From Octopus sinensis (Eukaryota): 64,000 bases of DNA. A model generated the notes under the pieces. That model saw nothing but the letters and a program-made list of their open reading frames with translations, was not told where the DNA came from and ran no database searches. Location: NCBI RefSeq assembly GCF_006345805.1, contig NC_043005.1, positions 1,302,001 through 1,366,000 of the forward strand, read 5' to 3'. Both the position numbers and the translations under genes were made by a program. Shown here one piece after another: positions 1-17,100 of the stretch. The first letter of the stretch is position 1. The number at the start of each line of letters is the position of its first letter.

Positions 1-499
1 GCACCATATAAAAATACTTCAAGAGGAGCATGGAGAAGAAAAATAGTAGAATGCCAATATCAAATTGCTTAACTGTATCCAGTTGCATTTCAAATCCCAC
101 AGGAGCTGACACTGTCATTCATCCCCCTTGGGTCAATAAGATAATAGTTGAGTACCAGTGAACTGAGACCAATTTAATGGTGTGCACCATAGCTGAGTCA
201 ATCTGCAAATATTAGAAACCATTTTTGACTGAGAAGCCATGATAAGCTGAGAGTCTGCCAATGATGACAGTAGACAGAACAGTTCTCTACCATTTATGCC
301 ATCAGCACATGTGTGCGTTTGGAATGGATGAAGCAGTTTGAAACCAAACAAAATTCAGCACAAAGGTTTATGTAGATTATTGAACAAAGCACATGAAAAA
401 TACCGATACACATGATAAAGTGTGCATATCACACACCACATGCACAGTAATGCATAGATTTGCACTTGTGCATGTATACATGGATATGTGTGTAAGTAG

Positions 500-3425
500 A
501 TACCCCCAACAACGATGCTATCTCTGATACCCCTTATTCTGCTTGTTTCCTAATTCCTGCCCCTCAAACTTCACAGCTCAGCATCGTCTATACCAACTCG
601 TGCTCCTTATTTCCAAAGTTCAGCGAAATATTTACACTGGCCATGCATGATTCCCCAGATGTGATAGCTATCACCAAGACTTGGCTGACTCCAGCAGTAA
701 AGGACTTGGAAATCCACCTACAGGGCAACGCCCTCTTCAGATGTGACAGAGAAAAAAGGCGAGGTGGAGGTGTTGCTGTGTATGTTAAATTTGATCTCAA
801 ACCGTCCAACTGTATTCTACCCACTAATGCTCAACCTACAACAAAATTCGATGCCGTCTATTGCAAGCTGAGCATTTCTGGGTTTTGCCTGCCCGTGTTA
901 GCTGTCTACAGGCCGCCTCTTGCCGACCCCCAGGACAATGCTCATTTACTCGAAGCGATAAGATTCGTTTCATCTTCTCATGAATGTTTGATATTAGGAG
1001 ACTTCAACGCTCCCATGATCGACTGGCCCGCATCAATTTGTACATCATCTTCCTGGTTCGGCCAGGCCCCTCTTGACGTGACTGAAGATTGTTTTCTATT
1101 GCAACATGTTGAATCTCCCGTCAAGGCATCGGTCTGGGCAGCAGCCATCTATGCTGGATCTGGTATTCTCCCGCTATCCAAGATCAGTATCAGGCTTATC
1201 TGTGCGCGCCCCTCTTGCCAAGAGTGATCATGCGGTCCTGAAGTTTGACATGCACACAACTTTTTCTACGCCCACAACTACTTCGCTACCACGTAGAGTC
1301 TTCTCTGCAATCAATCTTGAAATTCTAACCGAGGTTTCTGTGCTTCTGGACTGGCAATCCCTGATGACAATGTCCTCAGTTGACAAACTATGGTTGTCCC
1401 TCAAAGCATATGTAATCTGGTTGACTGACCGAGCAGTTCCCATTGGGCTTCCCAAGAAGAAGAAACACAAGCCCTGGGTGACGAAGAAGGTTAAATGAGA
1501 ACTTCGACTCAGAGATATTGCTTGGGCTGAATTCAAAAATCTAGATTCGACTGCAGCTTTTGAGGTGTACAAAACTCAACGAGACCAAGCCGTGAAAATT
1601 GAAAAGGAAGAACGCTTCAGATATGAATACAGAATCGCGGCAAACGCCAGTAGCAAACCAAAAACCTTCTTTGCCCATGTCCAACAGAATTCCCACTTGA
1701 ACAACCAAATTGCAACGTTGGTAGACTCAACAGGCATATCGATTGTGGACCCTTATCAGTAGAGTCAGTTATTTGCTGAGGCTTTTTCGACAATTTTCAA
1801 ACAAGATGATGGTCATGAACCCCCTCCATTTGATAGATTGGTACCTCCAATACCTAGATTGGTCATCACTTGGGACGAAGTCGAACGCATTATTCAAGGC
1901 CTCAATGTCAACAAGGGTCACGGCTCTGATGGCATACACCCACAGGTTATCAAAGCGTTGGCTCCAGTCATCTGCGAACCTTTAACACTTCTATTCAATA
2001 TGTCATTGGCGATGGGTGTTGTACCAGCGGACTGGAGAATAGCGATAATCTGCCTGATTTTCAAGAAAGAGAGCTGTGAAGACCCGCTTAACTACAGACC
2101 AGTTTCCCTTACTTCAATAATCAGCAAGATGTTCGAAACCATCCTCAAGAAAAGTATGTTGCTCCACCTCCAAAACACAGCCTCTATCTCTGATTCCCAA
2201 CACGGCTTTGTGCCAAAGAGATCATGCTTGACCAACTTACTGGTAATGGAAGAATTGGGGACGCGCATCCTCGATGATAGTGACGCTGTTGACATCGTTT
2301 TATTAGACTTTGCCAAAGCTTTTGACTCGGTAAACCACCGCCTATTACTTGTCAACCTTCAAGCATATAGTTTCCATCCGGATATTGTATGATAGGTTGG
2401 TGCCTTCCTCTCGGATCGCTCCTTCCAAGTCCAAGTTAATGGTTCGCTGTCTGACGTCTCCAGTGTGAGCAGTGGCATGCCTCAAGGTTCAGTGCTTGGG
2501 CCGTTATTGTTTTTAGTCTTCATCAATGACTTGCCCAATGACCTCACACAACACACCCTTCTATTTGCCGATAATGTCAAACTGGTCGCTCCTTGCGGTG
2601 ATATAGATGATCTTCGTCGATGCCTCCACCAAGTTTGGAGATGGTCAAACGAATGGGACCTGTGTCTGAACGTGTCAAAGTGCTGTCATCTGCCTGTTGG
2701 CTCCTCTTCTGCAACTCAACTTGATTTCGAGCCGGGTCGTCTGCTGCTGGAGAAGACCGACCAGGTAAAGGACCTGGGTATCTTGGTGGATTCTTCCTTC
2801 TTGCCTTCAGCCCAATGCGTCCATGCTGCCAACAAAGCACGCGGAGTTCTGTTTTTGATTTGACAGTCATTCAGAATGCTCACAGCAGCCATATTCCTAC
2901 CGCTGGTGAGACCCATATTGGAGTACGGGATTCAAGCCTCTTCTCCTTATCTCTTCAAAGACATACATCATCTCGAAAGAGTCCAGAAGTTGGCTACCTG
3001 CATGGTTCTTGGTCTCAAGCATTTGTCTTATGAAGAAAGGCTGAAGACGCTAGACCATTATTCTCTAGAAAAACGCCGCCGCCGTGGTGATCTCATTCTC
3101 ACTCACAACATCATAAGCGGAAAGTGTAACCTCTCGAAAGAGCTGTTCTTCACTCCGGCTCCAGAGTGTCAGCTGTAGGGTTACTCCGAAAAGCTCTATC
3201 TGTGACGATTTCATCTCAATCAAAGGAGAGGGGCTTTCTCTGTCCGAGTTGTGGATCTGTGGAATAAACTGCCAGACGGGATAGTGAAGATGCTGACGAC
3301 CGGTCGGTTCAAAGTCTCTCATGACCAGAAATGGCCTGAACTCTTTGCATGAACACCCTCCCTGTACTTAACTCCATGTCCCCCTACATGGCCTTGCTCT
3401 TGCTTTTAGAGCCAAAAAACTTAAC
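500..3425 (+). mobile_element. CR1-clade LINE, near-complete ORF2 (APE endonuclease + RT), disrupted by stops and frameshifts
   Basis: Consecutive ORF pieces carry APE motifs (YTNSCSL, IAITKTWL, RCDR..RRGGGVAVYVK, YRPP, LILGDFNAP, LDLVF, SDH) and RT motifs (NYRPVSLTS, QHGFVPKRSCLTNLL, LDFAKAFDSVNH, GMPQGSVLGPLLF, LFADNVKL, KDLGILVD). The CR1 C-terminus follows (LERVQKLAT, YEERLK, SLEKRRRRGDLI, WNKLP). The element ends at a (CA)/(TA) microsatellite. Confidence 0.93.
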
Positions 3426-4640: not shown

Positions 4641-5689
4641 CACAAATACCCACAAAATTCACACACATATATGAGAGAGTATATAAATTAGAAATATAAG
4701 CATATAAATATACATGCATATACAGACACACGTGCATATATATATATATACAGCATATACACACTCATATACACATATACATTTATATATACATATATAT
4801 ATTTATATATGTATGTATGAATTTGTGTGTTTGTTACTGACATATCAATCTCAACTCTTTCACATAAAGTCAATGGTTGATATGCAAGGCAATTACAACC
4901 GAAATACATGCTAAAGAGGAGCTCCAGCTTTACCCTGGAGGCAAAGGAGGACTGCATCACGGGAGAGACGAGGATTGGTAATGGAGAGGCAAGTTGGCAG
5001 CTGACAACACAGAACATCAAAGGCAACTGTTAGCAGTGTGGAAGAAGTTAAAAGTGGGGATGCAGCAGGAGTCTGAGAGGGAAGTATATTGTTTAATTAA
5101 TTAATTTAGTTATTGACGATTCTCAATATGTAGTTCCTTATAGAGCCCTGATGAAATATCTGAATTCTAGAAATTCTTGTATAACATAACCTTTACAACT
5201 GCAACCATCACAAATTCACAAAAGAAAAAAAGAACGAATGTCAATGAATGAATTTGGAGTTTCCATGAGTAAACGTGACCTAAATCCTTGAATCTGGAAG
5301 CAGCAGAAGCAGCAGCAGCAGCTTCCATCAGTCATCCTAAAGGAAGCGAAGGAGAATAGAGCTGGCACTTTTTAGAATGAAGATGACATAAGAAAAACAG
5401 GAGGCGATGGAGAAATTTAAAGAGAAGAAATTAGATAAAGTGGCACACCCAGATATCCACCCTTTAATTTTGGCTTATTTTGGGAACTGTGTCTACAGGT
5501 GTGTGTGAGTGTGTGTGCGCGCGTGTGTGCAAGCATATATACGTTTATAAAACTTCTGCCCTGTACTCTGGATACTGATCTTGCATCTTAAGCTGACAAA
5601 CAATGCGTTAATATTTCTGAAACAGTGATAACGTAGCCATCACCTGTCTTGTTTTTAAATATGGAAGAAGATATGATTTTCCAGAAACA

Positions 5690-8213: not shown

Positions 8214-8505
8214 TGTGGCCGATGCCAGTGCCGCCTAGACTGGCTTCCATGCCAGTGGCACATAAAAAGCACCATCCAAACATGGCCGATGCCAGCACCG
8301 CCTTGATTGGCTTCCGTGCCGGTGGCACGTAAAAAGCGCCCACTACACTCTCGGAGTGGTTGGCGTTAGGAAGGGCATCCAGCTGTAGAAACACTGCCAA
8401 ATCAGACTGGAGCCTGGTGCAGCCTTCTGGCTTTCCAGTTCCCCGGTCGAACCGTCCAACCCATGCTAGCATGGAGAACAGACGTTAAATGATGATGATG
8501 ATGAT
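8214..8505 (+). mobile_element. RTE-family 3'UTR copy with two gtgccNNNggcac-aaaaagcacc modules and a (TGA)n tail
   Basis: Same 3' sequence as the ORF-bearing RTE copies at 20100-20350 and 40400-40709. Confidence 0.85.
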
Positions 8506-8533
8506 AATATATCATATATATATTATATATATA

Positions 8534-8914
8534 CAAGCAGTATCGCCCAGCGTTGCTCGGGTTTGTAAGGGAAATAACTATATAAGCATTTTTAGAGATG
8601 TAAAGTATAATAGCCATCTCAATATGGCTAACCACAAAGGGGGGTGTTACTGTGGCTTTTTACGTTATGAGATTTAATAAATTTTTAGAGAGTTACTTCC
8701 CTTATATATGCCAAAAATGCATTAAAAATGGGAAAAATTGATGGTAATTTTTTTTTTAAATTGTAGACGCGCGCTAATACCCAGAAGGGCTCAATATGAA
8801 TCATGACTATAAGATACCGGGTTTTGGTTAAACTGCACCGCAAAATGTGGGAGTAGTTAGGAATCTAAATCGTAGGAGACAGACAGCACACAACCTCACT
8901 TTTATATATAAAGA
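8534..8914 (-). mobile_element. Non-autonomous Helitron
   Basis: On the minus strand it starts TC(tttatatataaaag...) and ends cccgagcaacgctgggcgatactgCTTG, a subterminal hairpin plus a CTAG-like end. Inserted between A and T in a TA tract. The 3' end is shared with 55105-55492. Confidence 0.75.
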
Positions 8915-8991
8915 TATATTATATATCATATATATATTATATATATATATATATATATTATACCATATATATTACAAATATCATATATATA

Positions 8992-8993
<2 letters not shown>

Positions 8994-9023
<30 letters not shown>

Positions 9024-9475
9024 TTAACGTTCGCTTTCAAAGCTGGCATGGGTTGGATGATTTGACTGAGGTCTGGCAAACCAAATGGCTGCACCAGGCT
9101 CCAATCTGATCTGGCAGAGTTTCTACAGCTCAATGCCCTTCCTAACGCCAACCACTCTGAGAGTGTAGTGGGTGCTTTTATGTGCTACCGACACTAGGGC
9201 CAGTCAGGTGGTACAGGCAATGGCCATGCTCAAATGGTGCATTTTATGTGCCACCTGCACAGGAGCCAGTCCAGCAGCACTGGCAACGACCTTGCTCGAA
9301 TATTTTTTCATGTGCCTCCAGCACAAGTGCCAGTAAGGCGATGCAGGTAATGATCACGCTCGAATGGTGCTTTTTACATGCCACCGGCAAAGAAGCCAGT
9401 TTGTTGCTCTGGCAACGATCACACTCGGATGGTACTTTTAGCACTCCACTAGCACAGATGCCAGTCATCGAATTT
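8994..9475 (-). mobile_element. RTE-family 3'UTR copy with about five hairpin modules
   Basis: (CAT)n tail, conserved tail sequence, and repeated ggtgcttttt-a-c/t-gtgccacc units. Confidence 0.85.
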
Positions 9476-9708
9476 GATTTTGATATTATACATGATATAT
9501 ATATTATATCATACATATCATAAATATATATTATATATATATTATAGACATATATATATATATATATATTACGGAGATGTACTTGCATAGTAAGTGACTT
9601 GTTCAGAGATCGTGTGCTGGAACGAAAACAATTGTAGCGTGGAAGGTGTTTATAAGCCATTTAAGAAACAGACAAAAATGTTAGATTTACTTCAACATTT
9701 AAATTTAA

Positions 9709-9759
9709 TTTGTCAAAATAATTTCATCACTTTGAGACCGCGACCTGTTCACTGACAAA
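9709..9759 (-). ncRNA. Minimal hammerhead motif, G3-C8 core variant (left arm)
   Basis: Minus strand reads tttgtca-GTGAACA-g-gtcgc ggtctcaaa gtgat-GAAA-ttat-TT-tgacaaa. Confidence 0.65.
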
Positions 9760-9789
9760 ACTTTGTGCTGCATCTGAGCAGCAGGAAGT

Positions 9790-9840
9790 TTTGTCAGTGA
9801 ACAGGTTGCGGTCTCAAAGTGACGAAACTATTTTGACAAA
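9790..9840 (+). ncRNA. Minimal hammerhead motif, G3-C8 core variant (right arm)
   Basis: tttgtca-GTGAACA-g-gttgc ggtctcaaa gtgac-GAAA-ctat-TT-tgacaaa, with a 7-bp stem I and a 5-bp stem II. Confidence 0.68.
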
Positions 9841-9931
9841 TTAGATTTAAATGTTGAAGTGAATCTAACATTTTTGTATGTTTCTTAAATGGTTTATAAA
9901 CACCTTCCACGCTGCAATTATATATATATAT

Positions 9932-10243
9932 ACGGTGGCATGTAAAAAGCACCATCCGTTCGTGGCCATTGCCAGCCTCGCCTGGCCCCGTGCCGGCGGC
10001 ACGTAAAAAGCACCATCCGTCCGTGGCCGTTTGCCAGCTCCATCTGGCACCTGTGCGGGTGGCACGTAAAAAGCGCCCACTACACTCACGAAGTGGTTGG
10101 CGTTAGGAAGGGCATCCAGCTGAAGAAACTTTGCCAGATAAGACCGGAGCCTGGTGCAGCCTTTTAGCTTCCCAGATCCCCGGTCGAACCGTCCAACCCA
10201 TGCTAGCATTGAGAACGGACGTTAAACGATGATGATGATGATG
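9932..10243 (+). mobile_element. RTE-family 3'UTR copy (three hairpin modules, CpG-rich, apparently young)
   Basis: gtgccggcggcacgtaaaaagcacc modules, conserved tail and (TGA)n. Confidence 0.85.
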
Positions 10244-10255
10244 ATATATATATAT

Positions 10256-10293
<38 letters not shown>

Positions 10294-10471
10294 ACATATA
10301 TACACACTAGCTAACGTACCTGGTAATTCCCAGAAAAGTGGGGCTTATCCTCTGGTCCTGTTCTCATAATTGTTTCACTAATCCATATGTTTCACTACAT
10401 ACTAAGTATGTAGCCCTTAAAACGGTTTTTGTGCATTTATTGAGAATACTGAACTGTCTTAGACAGGATCT

Positions 10472-10945
10472 TCATCATTATCATCATCGTTTAATGTCCC
10501 ATGCTAGCATGGGTTGGACAGTTTGTCTAGGGTCTGGGAAGCCAGGAGGCTGCACCAGGCTCCAGTCTGATCAGGCAGTGTTTCTACAGCTGGATGCCCT
10601 TCCTAATGCCAACCTCTCCATGAGTATAGTGGGTGATTTTCACCTGCCACCGGCACAGGGGCCAGAGGATGCTGGCAATGGCCATGATTGGTTGGTGCTT
10701 TCTGCCAACAGAGGTAGTAGTTCTCTGAAATTCCTCCAACCTATTCTTATTCTAGAACTAATACTTTCAGAGCATCCACCACTGTTACTAATTTGGTCAC
10801 CTAAATAGCAGAAACTATCTACTACCTCAAGAGAGTCTCCCAACCATTTGAGAGAGTTTAAGTCTCTTGTGCTCTTAGTACTTATTGTTCCTATACATCT
10901 ATCACACACAAAAGCAACCTTATCTGATAATCTTCCCATGCATCT
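10472..10945 (-). mobile_element. RTE copy, internally deleted (RT segment fused to 3'UTR)
   Basis: ORF 10640-10939 reads FVCDRCIG...LEVVDSFCYLGDQI...RIRIGWRNFRELLPLL and joins directly to the 3'UTR/tail. Confidence 0.85.
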
Positions 10946-11149
10946 CTTGACTGAACCCAGAGCAAAAACCAGTTCCCAACCTCCATGTTATAAATGTAAA
11001 TCCCACCCTTCCCCACACCTCTAATACCCTTCCAAATATTGGAGTATCAAACAATCTAACAAACGACCACCCCACACCTGATAACCCCTAATACACCACA
11101 ACCCCTCCAAAACCCTAGCTCCACCCAGGTAATCCTACCCCCAATCAGA

Positions 11150-12737: not shown

Positions 12738-14036
12738 CAGGGTGAGGCAAAGAGGTCAGAGGTTTTTGAAAAATTCAAAATCATTAATTTTAGCTGCAAG
12801 CAAATTTTATTGACGCCAATGTGTTTGTATTGAATTAGCATTTGTCAAAATCAAATGTGGAAAACAACATCCATCATGTGGTGTCCATTTTCCTTGATGC
12901 ATTTCTGAAGGTGTTCTTGGAAGTAGGTTTCCACTCTTTCTAGCAATGTTCTGTTGATTTGGGTGACTTCCACACGAATAGTTTCTTTCAAATCATCCAA
13001 TATGCGGCACATACACACGCACTTTGAGGTTTCCCCACAAGAAATAATCACACATGGACAAATCAGGGGACAGGGGGGGGGGGGGCAAGGAAGGACAACA
13101 AATCTGGAAGTGAGGCAGTCACTGAAAAGAGGGTGAAGAACATCCATTGATGCTCTGGCTGTGTGGGCAATCGCCCCATCCTTCTGAAGCCACACATGTT
13201 GAATAGGGATGCGTTTCCGTCGTAATTCAGGCACAAAGAAGTCAATCGTCCTCTCGATGTAATGCTCGGCATTCACAGTAACAGCATTCCCATTGTTGTC
13301 TTCAAACAAGTACAGACCAATGACAGCAGCTTTTCCAACAGTACACCAGACCATTACATTGGGGCTGTGCAGTGGTCTTTTGTGCAGTTCTCTCGGATTT
13401 TCAAGAGCCCAATAACGACAGTTCTGTTGATTCACCATGCCATTGAGATCAAAATGAACTCCATCACTCATTAACAAAATGCAGTTGTCATTTGCCTCAA
13501 AAATTACTTCCATCTGACATGCAAAGTTAGGCTGCTGCACATAGTCCCATGGTTTCAACTGTTGCCCAGTGACCAATTTACATGGGTGGAAATACAGGGG
13601 GAATGCAAAATATGCCTCACCGCTCAATTACTGATGCCAAGTTCAGTGGAATGTCTCCGAGCAGAGCGATTCGGACTCCATATGAAAGCTTGTCTGACAT
13701 GTTCCACATTTTCCGGGGTCCGTACCGTTCGTGGCACTCCACTGGTCTGCTATTCATTAGTGTACCTCATGTACGAAGTGCATTCACCCAACATAAGATT
13801 GTGTTACGGGTGGGAACAGCCTGATTTTGATGACTATTGAAGTGGCACTGAAACTCACACTGAACTGCTGCGACAGATGTGTTATTCTTCATGCAACTGT
13901 CATAAGCAGACATGCAATGCTCTCTGAAAAAAGAATGCTAAGATACCACAAGCCGAATGCTACCTGTTGGACATATGTCTCTCCTCTTGGGTTGAGTAAT
14001 AGCCATTTCAAAAATGTCCATCCTCTATACCCCACC

Positions 14037-15234: not shown

Positions 15235-17100
15235 AAGAGGACAAAGATTAAGTGGCCGAAAGCAAATGACGCAGCGAGTTATAAAAAAATTTGACAGCGA
15301 GGTAGCAAGAATGACCACCAAATTCAAAGACGACGACGAACAAAAGCTGGAAAACCTGGTTAATACAATCTACCAGGAAGGAGAGAAAAGATTTGGACTG
15401 GAAACAACGGGGAAGGTAGAATCAACAGCAAAGAGCTGACCATCGAGGAGAGAAAGATGGATAGCAAAGATTTGAGAAGAGAAGAAAGATAGAGGGATGC
15501 AAAGGAGGAGGAAAGAGAAGGGCTAAAGCAGCTATATGAAGAGATAAAAAGGAGGCATTGAGATCTTCTAAGAAAACAAAGAAGGGGGAGCAGAAGAAAG
15601 GAGAGAGAAAAGAACTATCGTAGCTTTGTGAACAATCCCTATCAATATGCGAAACATCTATTTACTGAAAGTAAAAGCAGAAAAATGAATTGCACGAAAG
15701 AAGAGCTCGAACAACATCTGAAAGAGACGGAAAACTAAGGCACGCAGATGTAGTCGGAGCGACACAAGAAGCACAATTTCAGGCCATTTTGCAAGAGCAG
15801 TATAAAAGAGATGAAAGAGGCAGTGGTATACGAAGTGAGAAAGGAGGAAGAAGAAAGGCAAAATGTACATTTGGCGCAATGTAGCCAAAAGGGACAGTGC
15901 CTGAGATGGGAGGAATATGTGATCAACCGCAGAATATCATGGAAAGAACTTTGGGCTTGGGAACAAGCAAGAACATCCTTCCTGTTCAAGTCTACCTTCG
16001 ACGTTCTACCCTCACCGGCAAACTTAGTCCGATGGAACATAAAAACAACCGATGAGTGTAGATGCGGAGAGAAAGCGACAGTCAGACATGTTCTGTCAAA
16101 TTGCAGACTAGCACTAGAAAGATATACATGGCAGCATAATCAAGTCCTCGGCGTCATTAAGCACAAGAAGATCGGGAGGTACAATAGGGGAGAATACCCA
16201 AAAGTAGAAAAGCGCAGGAAAGTATACTTCCACAAGGCGGGAAAAGGTTATAAAACCAGGCCTACAAGTAAAGTATACGAGATAGACGAAAGATGGAAGG
16301 GATACTGGGAGGTGGCCACGGACTTGGAAAGACTAGTAATATTTCCGCTAATGAAAACAACAAAAAGACCGGATTTAGTCCTATGGGACAGAGACCGGAG
16401 AATAGGAATTTTACTAGAACTAACAGTACCTTGGGAAGAGAACATCGGCAATGCAGAGAAATGTAAGAAGAGATACGAAAAGCTAATCGAAGAATGCAGA
16501 GAACAGGGATGGAATGTCGAGTATTACCACCTAGCAGTGGGGGCTAGGGGCTTCATTGAAAAAAAAATGACAACGCTTTTCAAAAGAAGATTTGTTTTTT
16601 CTAGATCGGAGCTGCGAAAACTAATAAGGAGAGTACAGGAGGCGGTCGTAAAAGCCAGCTTCTATATATGGCTGAAGCGGGAAGACCGAAAATGGCTTGA
16701 AAGTCATAACATGCCGGCGGAGAATAACATCACTAGGTGAAACAAGCTGACACTGAATCAGCTTCACTCACTGACAGGTGACGGTCGTTTAGAGAATGCG
16801 TGGGCTAAGACTACGCGCCTTCACTAGTCAGTTAAAGTTGAGTCACTGTCACGTGACAACTTGCTGGGACTGCCTGCTGGAGCCTAGCAGCAAGTAGTTA
16901 AAGGGAAATTTGACAAGACAGTCTGTCGCCCGCTGACACTACATCAAAGAGGCCAAAGAACAGAAGAAAGAAGACATACACCCAACACCAGAGCTGAAGA
17001 CACCTCTGAAAGGAGGGGGGGCTACCACGTCAAAACGGTAGAGGAGTAGGGGCTGAAACCAGATGTGGTTCCTCCTGGTGATGTCTTGAGCTAACTGGAT
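15235..17100 (+). mobile_element. HERO/NeSL-like RLE LINE with the RT domain deleted
   Basis: The pre-RT region (KIKWPKAND, SFVNNPYQYAKHLF, TKEELEQHLKET) joins near 15729 to the post-RT region (LRHADVVGATQ). The CCHC finger and RLE follow. The 3' boundary is uncertain. Confidence 0.8.
15811..16740 (+). CDS. Open 309-aa ORF: CCHC zinc knuckle + PD-(D/E)xK restriction-like endonuclease of the HERO-like LINE
   Basis: Motifs FDVLPSPANLVRW, CRCGEKATVRHVLSNC, RYTWQHNQVL, RPDLVLWD, LLELTVPWEE, KKRYEKL, VGARGF and ASFYIW. Confidence 0.8.
   Translation: MKEAVVYEVRKEEEERQNVHLAQCSQKGQCLRWEEYVINRRISWKELWAWEQARTSFLFKSTFDVLPSPANLVRWNIKTTDECRCGEKATVRHVLSNCRLALERYTWQHNQVLGVIKHKKIGRYNRGEYPKVEKRRKVYFHKAGKGYKTRPTSKVYEIDERWKGYWEVATDLERLVIFPLMKTTKRPDLVLWDRDRRIGILLELTVPWEENIGNAEKCKKRYEKLIEECREQGWNVEYYHLAVGARGFIEKKMTTLFKRRFVFSRSELRKLIRRVQEAVVKASFYIWLKREDRKWLESHNMPAENNITR

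What the first reader, a model, noticed from the sequence alone, without database searches (positions are those of the whole stretch)
9630..9919. Palindromic element carrying two hammerheads with a swapped G3-C8 core pair
Seen in sequence: a ~290-bp inverted repeat in which each arm has stem I (tttgtca/tgacaaa), core GUGAACA, one extra purine, stem II (gtcgc/gcgac with CpG decay), GAAA and a very short stem III. Established: C3 and G8 of CUGANGA form a tertiary Watson-Crick pair that tolerates compensatory swaps, and Penelope-like elements carry minimal hammerheads that act as dimers. Inference: this is a non-autonomous PLE derivative with a G3-C8 ribozyme on both strands. Standard CUGANGA searches would miss it, so a whole family may be unannotated.
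Basis: partly seen in the sequence, partly recalled or inferred. Interest (0 to 1): 0.85.

Follow-up and report, generated by a model that had tools for sequence, protein, structure and literature searches.

The report
Swapped-core hammerhead in Penelope retrotransposon
The palindrome is two back-to-back copies of the front end of a common Penelope-type jumping gene, whose predicted self-cutting hammerhead RNA has two paired core letters exchanged in thousands of copies, so it is likely a natural form of a variant I found reported only as a lab mutant, although cutting is untested.

Summary
The 142-bp inverted arms and the G3-C8 hammerhead-like motif in each are real. The palindrome is not the element. 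The unit is a ~207-bp piece (6,632 exact core matches in this genome) of an autonomous Penelope-like element (PLE): the end of its terminal repeat plus the first 31 codons of an RT/GIY-YIG ORF. Related families carry the motif with C3-G8 or U3-A8, and an older relative keeps G3-C8 with changed stems; 92 of 100 listed non-family hits keep a Watson-Crick 3-8 pair. Over four subfamily consensuses 0 of 42 stem/core positions change. In 27 of 30 two-armed insertions one arm has the tail and one lacks it, and 21 of 29 copies starting at the 5' boundary carry an extra G, suggesting both target strands are primed on capped, uncleaved RNA. Against: no cleavage footprint in DNA or RNA, 227 G3-G8 matches, both window copies decayed. 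No natural G3-C8 in five searches, but the most relevant paper was unavailable. The scan found this family before in two other genomes.

The parts
9569..9777 (-). Left arm: complete ~207-bp unit (5' boundary, hammerhead motif, 5' UTR, first 31 codons incl. tail)
   Evidence: family boundaries; same sequence leads into the ORF in L140, L149
9778..9919 (+). Right arm: second, inverted copy ending at the short 3' end (unit position ~148), no tail
9790..9840 (+). Type I minimal hammerhead motif, G3 at 9797, C8 at 9802, predicted cut between 9833 and 9834; decayed at 15.2 (C9828) and two CpG sites
   Evidence: sequence; descriptor, folding
9709..9759 (-). Type I minimal hammerhead motif, G3 at 9752, C8 at 9747, predicted cut between 9716 and 9715; decayed at 15.2 and 11.1
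9568..9660 (-). First 31 codons of the PLE ORF (starts MAYKHLP), cut off at the tail end
   Evidence: translation; same start heads 608-aa and 597-aa frames in L140 and L149
9569..9629 (-). One-sided ~60-nt tail, absent from the right arm
   Evidence: arm 3' ends cluster at unit 142-157 and 201-211
9775..9775 (-). Inferred transcription start (unit position 3, Inr-like context; Inr consensus recalled)
   Evidence: 21 of 29 copies starting here are preceded by G where the element has C or T; inference
9555..9568 (.). (TA)n target, left side
   Evidence: 29 of 53 insertions are TA-flanked
9920..9932 (.). (TA)n target, right side

Best explanation
The palindrome is two head-to-head copies of the terminal-repeat end and ORF start of an autonomous Penelope-like retrotransposon, likely made in one event by priming on both strands of a (TA)n target, and its G3-C8 motif is a hammerhead homologue that is likely kept by selection and would cut weakly, as a dimer or with the element's protein. 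Shown: the unit lies directly before the ATG and again after the stop of an RT/GIY-YIG ORF; G3-C8 dominates the family and an older relative; related families have C3-G8 or U3-A8. Inferred steps: (1) an internal promoter starts a capped RNA about 16 nt before stem I; (2) the RT starts inside the ORF at two fixed sites (unit ~150 and ~209), one on each nicked strand, and runs back to the cap, giving one tailed and one untailed arm joined at their 5' ends, often with a cap-derived G; (3) the template is uncleaved RNA, so cutting is not needed for a given insertion; (4) the hammerhead, 60 nt from the cap and 52 nt before the ATG, would act on the mRNA pool (removing the cap or freeing units from tandem transcripts). 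The two window copies are decayed and probably inert.
For: ORF link: L140 and L149 run unit -> ATG -> ORF; L222 has a 1042-aa stop-free frame with the G3-C8 unit downstream; homologues hit GIY-YIG above cut-off and RVT_1 below it; the profile hits two solved RTs. Core counts for one 18-nt pattern: G3-C8 6,632, G3-G8 227, C3-C8 36, C3-G8 19; none of the 19 matched the unit by BLAST, and most show their own stem II, GAAA and stem I. Descriptor with positions 3, 7, 8 free: 7,479 hits, control 4; first 100 listed, hand tally: 52 U3-A8, 39 C3-G8, 1 G3-C8, 8 unpaired. Older relative: 35 of 41 G3-C8 (hand tally), one stem I pair changed G-C to U-A and stem III palindrome AAUU to AAUAUU. Four subfamily consensuses: 0 of 42 stem/core columns vary, 5 of 9 loop II, 10 of 65 other UTR, P 0.001 (0.013 without the noisiest consensus), while 45 of 189 third codon positions differ between old and young. 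Two-arm rule 27 of 30, none with two tails (hand tally). Extra G 21 of 29 against 13% in nearby flank. PMC11167929: a PLE protein extends both strands from two internal start sites, its hammerhead is protein-assisted, C3G/G8C partly rescues it, and cutting is not needed for insertion.
Against: No cleavage shown. Only 2 of 78 arms begin at the predicted cut site and both are explained by stem I microhomology. No pile-up of RNA ends, reads on both strands (fragmented libraries, a coded organism, about 6% of each run). 227 G3-G8 matches, six times the C3-C8 count, occur on several subfamily backgrounds and in ORF-linked copies, so unpaired cores probably spread too. Folding predicts an extra G3-U17 wobble extending stem I, and co-folding does not give the dimeric hammerhead as lowest-energy form. 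The extra nucleotide is G, outside the published H consensus though present in one listed example. UTR conservation could serve the promoter or RT binding. P0002 itself has no Pfam hit. The extra G could partly come from target or partner-arm microhomology.
Confidence: 0.62

Rival explanations
1. The motif is a catalytically dead or negligible hammerhead relic. G3-C8 was fixed once in a master copy, and the fold is kept for another job (promoter element, RT/protein binding site, or a stop for cDNA synthesis).
For: G3-G8 copies amplified (227) including ORF-linked ones; no cleavage footprint; hammerhead mutants do not affect PLE insertion in vitro (PMC11167929); a related family has C at position 9 in 24 of its 39 listed C3-G8 hits, so core drift occurs.
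Against: Three different Watson-Crick pairs at 3-8 in related families are hard to explain without the tertiary pair, which forms in the catalytic fold; stems and core are unchanged while loop II varies.
Confidence: 0.3
2. Head-to-head arms arise by fold-back self-priming on an antisense template (proposal in PMC3846280), or by later recombination or duplication of a single copy.
For: PMC3846280 passage argues for this from palindromes at inverted junctions; RNA reads come from both strands; junctions often show microhomology.
Against: The two arms end at two different fixed 3' sites in 27 of 30 cases; direct repeats of 11-14 nt flank whole two-armed inserts (e.g. L010, L017, L023, L078); the extra G sits at the sense 5' end.
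Confidence: 0.2
3. A non-autonomous palindromic element or MITE with its own ends.
For: 18 of 26 position-ordered insertions are two-armed; most copies lack the ORF.
Against: The unit is the terminal repeat and first codons of an ORF-bearing element; arm junctions vary; duplications vary in length; 8 of 26 are single-armed.
Confidence: 0.05

Closest known systems
Minimal type I hammerheads in the pseudo-LTRs of metazoan PLEs (Cervera and de la Pena 2014, PMC4209133; main text parts 1-2 of 4, supplement parts 1-2 of 3)
   Same: Type I layout, extra nucleotide between 9 and 10.1, G10.1-C11.1, palindromic minimal stem III, U17 common, thousands of solo copies, a 3-8 covariation (U3-A8 in Schistosoma).
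   Different: Core is G3-C8; none of the representatives in their Fig. S3 text has it. Extra nucleotide is G where their consensus is H. No cephalopod is among those representatives.
Poseidon from Anolis carolinensis, PAc (Frangieh et al. 2024, PMC11167929; parts 1-2 of 4)
   Same: Two RT start sites inside the ORF start define the tail; AT-rich targets; both strands extended; hammerhead at the pLTR-ORF junction; no RNA-seq ends at the cut site.
   Different: There C3G/G8C is an engineered partial rescue; here it is the natural family state. Tail about 60 nt here; motif lies wholly before the ATG; the ORF has a CX3CxxC linker.
EN+ PLE insertions with inverted pLTR and one-sided tail (Adineta Pen2a, PMC3846280, passages; Craig et al. 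2021, PMC8557442, passages)
   Same: Inverted 5' copy, tail on one end, TSD about 9-14 bp, pLTR covering the first 12 codons and tail extending further, (TA)n bias with the CX2-5CxxC linker (Neptune/Nematis type).
   Different: They propose antisense self-priming or leave the mechanism open; the extra G at the 5' boundary was not in the passages read.
Natural core variants of hammerheads (Perreault et al. 2011, PMC3088659; section 8 and passages)
   Same: Compensatory change of the 3-8 pair occurs in nature.
   Different: Only U3-A8 is named in the text; figures and supplements not seen.

Membership tests
EN+ Penelope-like element | Single ORF with RT and C-terminal GIY-YIG endonuclease | tested here: met
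   722-aa and 1042-aa stop-free frames with YVDD and a C-terminal xxY...YIG; homologue P0119 passes the GIY-YIG cut-off; profile hits RT structures. P0002 alone has no Pfam hit.
EN+ Penelope-like element | Direct pseudo-LTRs on both sides of the ORF | tested here: met
   L219: unit at 543-749 and 4904-5050, ORF between with one frameshift
EN+ Penelope-like element | One-sided tail and adjacent inverted copy | tested here: met
EN+ Penelope-like element | CCHH motif in the endonuclease | tested here: met
   Two Cys between the GIY- and YIG-like motifs and downstream His, read; C619 invariant in 71 homologues
Neptune or Nematis clade | CX2-5CxxC linker before the endonuclease | tested here: met
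   CQSNCAVC in P0002; C597 and C600 invariant; feature from PMC8557442
Neptune or Nematis clade | Placement in an RT tree with named clade references | not tested
   No named reference sequences in hand
PLE minimal hammerhead | Core CUGANGA ... GAAA | tested here: not met
   Core is GUGANCA in 6,632 matches; positions 4, 5, 6, 9, 12-15.1 are canonical
PLE minimal hammerhead | Watson-Crick pair between positions 3 and 8 | tested here: met
   227 G3-G8 exceptions
PLE minimal hammerhead | Stems I and II, G10.1-C11.1, palindromic stem III, NUH site | tested here: met
   Lowest-energy fold of two intact copies (L005, L222) gives stems I and II; AAUAUU is self-complementary; site UUU. Window copies have lost the palindrome.
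PLE minimal hammerhead | Located in the pLTR, sense to the ORF | tested here: met
PLE minimal hammerhead | Self-cleavage | not testable with these tools
   Indirect tests negative
MITE / DNA transposon | Fixed terminal inverted repeats and fixed-length TSD | tested here: not met
   Single-armed copies, variable junctions, variable duplications
Non-LTR retrozyme | Protein-free tandem repeats, each with a hammerhead | tested here: not met
   Dispersed single or head-to-head copies tied to an ORF; definition from bioRxiv 10.64898/2026.07.22.740005 part 1

The most novel reading that the evidence does not exclude
One clade of octopus-type Penelope elements has tried three Watson-Crick pairs at the hammerhead's tertiary 3-8 position, including an active natural G3-C8 that has lasted through two families, always with U17. 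The thousands of 207-bp stubs are complete cap-to-start-site cDNAs of the mRNA's front end, and the palindromes are the genomic record of a dimeric RT priming both target strands from two internal sites on uncleaved capped RNA. The ribozyme is then a switch on the mRNA (decapping or cap-free translation) and not part of insertion.
Probability: 0.35. Interest if true: 0.72.

Novelty: new variant of a known kind. Interest (0 to 1): 0.52.

Why it matters
PLE hammerheads are known, but their role is open and their insertion mechanism is only partly worked out. A natural G3-C8 core beside C3-G8 and U3-A8 relatives gives a ready-made set to test whether catalysis is what selection keeps, and shows that CUGANGA descriptors and Rfam miss high-copy families (at least 6,632 copies here), which bears on claims that some PLE groups lack hammerheads. 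The two-arm rule and the extra G are genomic support for the two internal start sites shown in vitro for one lizard element, and argue against the antisense self-priming idea. Young copies with long stop-free frames exist, so the element can be assayed.

Tried and rejected
Rfam scan of 8500-11000 at E up to 5: 8 matches, none a hammerhead, all below gathering scores. Splice-acceptor reading of the 5' boundary (622 copies carry the upstream branch/pyrimidine-like stretch): set aside because short copies join unrelated DNA there, with a G excess; not excluded. G3-G8 as the evolutionary intermediate: five G3-G8 rows sit in one mid-aged group among G3-C8 rows (support 94/83, midpoint root only) and the older relative is 35 of 41 G3-C8, so loss is more likely, but not proven. 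Cleavage footprint in 5' ends: none. Sequencing-run search: no RNA holder listed. Pfam and PDB searches with P0002 alone: nothing. Structure prediction submitted but not finished, so no fold evidence. TSD calls have no shuffled control. Literature searches for a natural G3-C8 found only engineered ones; Lunse et al. (RNA Biol, PLE hammerhead variants) was not held and could already contain it; Repbase and Dfam could not be searched; supplements of PMC8557442, PMC11167929 and PMC3088659 were not read.

Full report
Observation. The inverted repeat is real: arms 9630-9771 and 9778-9919, 93% complementary, folding far below all 100 shuffles. A relaxed hammerhead descriptor fits both arms and 3 of 5000 shuffles. 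Rfam reports no hammerhead in 8500-11000.

What the unit is. The window lies in G000, a 2.7-Gb animal genome; the best protein hit of the linked ORF is named from Octopus vulgaris. The repeat unit is about 207 bp and extends to 9569, beyond the palindrome. An 18-nt pattern over stem I, core and stem II has 6,632 exact matches, a 29-nt pattern further 3' has 7,054. Following upstream extensions (622 matches) led to L136, where a 722-aa stop-free frame precedes the unit on the same strand, with an unrelated insertion between them that other loci lack. In L140 and L149 the unit runs straight into the ATG of the same ORF; L219 has unit, ORF (one frameshift), unit; L222 has a 1042-aa stop-free frame. 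[quoted passage not shown] This fits an EN+ PLE of Neptune/Nematis type (PMC8557442, passages); the clade was not tested. The window's left arm translates to the first 31 codons.

How the palindrome arises. In a position-ordered sample, 18 of 26 loci have an inverted partner (4 of 30 dropped as second fetches of one place; three of the 26 look like segmental duplicates); in the best-hit sample 12 of 27 (3 of 30 dropped: two are the window, one a repeat fetch). Of these 30, 27 pair an end at unit 203-211 with one at 142-157 and none has two long ends (hand tally). The window follows the rule (209 and 148). 29 of 53 loci are TA-flanked and several have 11-14-nt direct repeats around the whole insert; this count has no control. 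Among 78 arms chosen by a pattern 3' of the cut site, 59 start at or before stem I by script (about 62 after three indel artefacts), only 6 reach more than 10 nt beyond the 5' boundary, and 2 start at the cut site, both within stem I microhomology. Of 29 copies that start exactly at unit position 3 and do not extend upstream, 21 are preceded by G where the element has C or T (nearby flank 13% G; two of the 21 share a flank). I infer a capped start there (cap-derived G is recalled from other retrotransposons). With the two internal RT start sites and both-strand extension shown for the Anolis PLE (PMC11167929, parts 1-2), the simplest model is two cDNAs, one per start site and target strand, running to the cap and joined head-to-head. 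PMC3846280 (passages) describes the same anatomy and proposes antisense self-priming, kept as a rival.

Is it a hammerhead? With the same flanks, core counts are G3-C8 6,632, G3-G8 227, C3-C8 36, C3-G8 19. The 19 do not match the unit by BLAST and mostly belong to other repeats with canonical cores. Sister PLEs at about 28-48% identity in the matched stretches carry the motif at the same place before their ATG: one group with C3-G8 and C9, one with U3-A8. A descriptor with 3, 7, 8 free and a shorter loop II gave 7,479 hits against 4 controls; of the first 100 listed, 52 are U3-A8, 39 C3-G8, 1 G3-C8, 8 unpaired (hand tally; copies are not independent events). An older relative with the same boundaries is G3-C8 in 35 of 41 matches (hand tally; two look like copies of the young family, two are duplicates) and differs by a compensatory stem I pair and a shorter stem III palindrome. 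Across four subfamily consensuses 0 of 42 stem/core columns vary against 5 of 9 in loop II and 10 of 65 elsewhere in the UTR (P 0.001; 0.013 without one noisy consensus), while third codon positions differ at 45 of 189. Intact copies fold into stems I and II. In the listed copies G3 and U3 families have U17, and C17 appears only with C3 (by eye), as expected if N3-N17 pairing traps an inactive form (PMC3884650, passages).

Against activity. No cleavage was shown. RNA reads of a coded organism (1431, 1083, 1038 laid; about 6% of three runs) cover both strands with no place where many molecules begin or end; no variant of 10% or more is listed at positions 3 or 8, with two rows not shown. Such libraries are poor at showing ends. 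G3-G8 is six times more frequent than C3-C8; 18 of 20 such loci fetched belong to this family, on several backgrounds, and include ORF-linked copies. In the endonuclease tree (67 rows, midpoint root, bootstrap not settled) five G3-G8 rows sit in one mid-aged group with G3-C8 rows around them, which suggests loss followed by some spread. Folding adds a G3-U17 wobble and does not favour the dimer. Both window motifs are decayed, lie on opposite strands, and are buried in the hairpin on read-through.

Comparison. PLE minimal hammerheads, with the extra nucleotide, palindromic stem III and U3-A8, are described in PMC4209133 (main text parts 1-2 of 4; supplement parts 1-2 of 3); no listed representative has G3-C8. 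PMC3088659 (section 8, passages) names only U3-A8 in nature. G3-C8 appeared only as an engineered rescue in searches. Lunse et al. was seen only as a reference and may hold it. PMC13725137 (abstract, passages) shows that 5' UTR hammerhead cleavage can start cap-free translation in viruses, a lead for function. PMC6765202 (passages) and bioRxiv 10.64898/2026.07.22.740005 (part 1 of 5) gave background. After reaching these results I read earlier scan notes: the same family in two other genomes, and the two-arm rule for other elements of this genome; these are AI notes, not support.

Verdict. Known kind of element and known kind of insertion; the natural G3-C8 core is a new variant as far as I could search, well supported as a hammerhead homologue (about 0.9), moderately as an active ribozyme (about 0.55-0.6). 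Interest 0.52.

Noticed in passing
L184, L198, L202, L203, L206, L211, L216, L312 (sister PLE family): Hammerhead motif with C in place of the conserved A9 (24 of 39 listed C3-G8 hits), a high-copy core variant.
   Followed up: partly
L199, L200, L205, L207, L210, L213, L310 (sister PLE family): U3-A8 hammerhead, 52 of the first 100 hits; its short copies also seem to start at one boundary, often after a G (by eye).
   Followed up: partly
L136:4859-7604: An element with ~600-bp direct terminal repeats (98% alike), no long ORF, inside a larger insertion in the PLE's 3' region; related pieces in L130.
   Followed up: no
L136:4183-9080 and consensuses: The PLE's ~1.1-kb 3' region is built of (CATA)n/(CA)n repeats and was rearranged between old and young subfamilies while the last 230 nt stayed fixed.
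   Followed up: partly
L157-L167: Internally deleted G3-G8 copy (unit fused to mid-ORF) present at many places with shared flanks, i.e. carried in a segmental repeat.
   Followed up: no
window 8216-8512, 9004-9470, 9933-10249, 10503-10701: Several copies of a different SINE-like repeat with ~65-nt internal tandem units and a (CAT)n tail flank the finding on both strands; octopus tRNA-derived SINE by recall.
   Followed up: no
window 496-2863 (+) and 15754-16740 (+): Broken LINE frames: an endonuclease/RT element and the C-terminal part of another non-LTR element; a transposase-like frame at 12851-13627 (-) (by eye).
   Followed up: no
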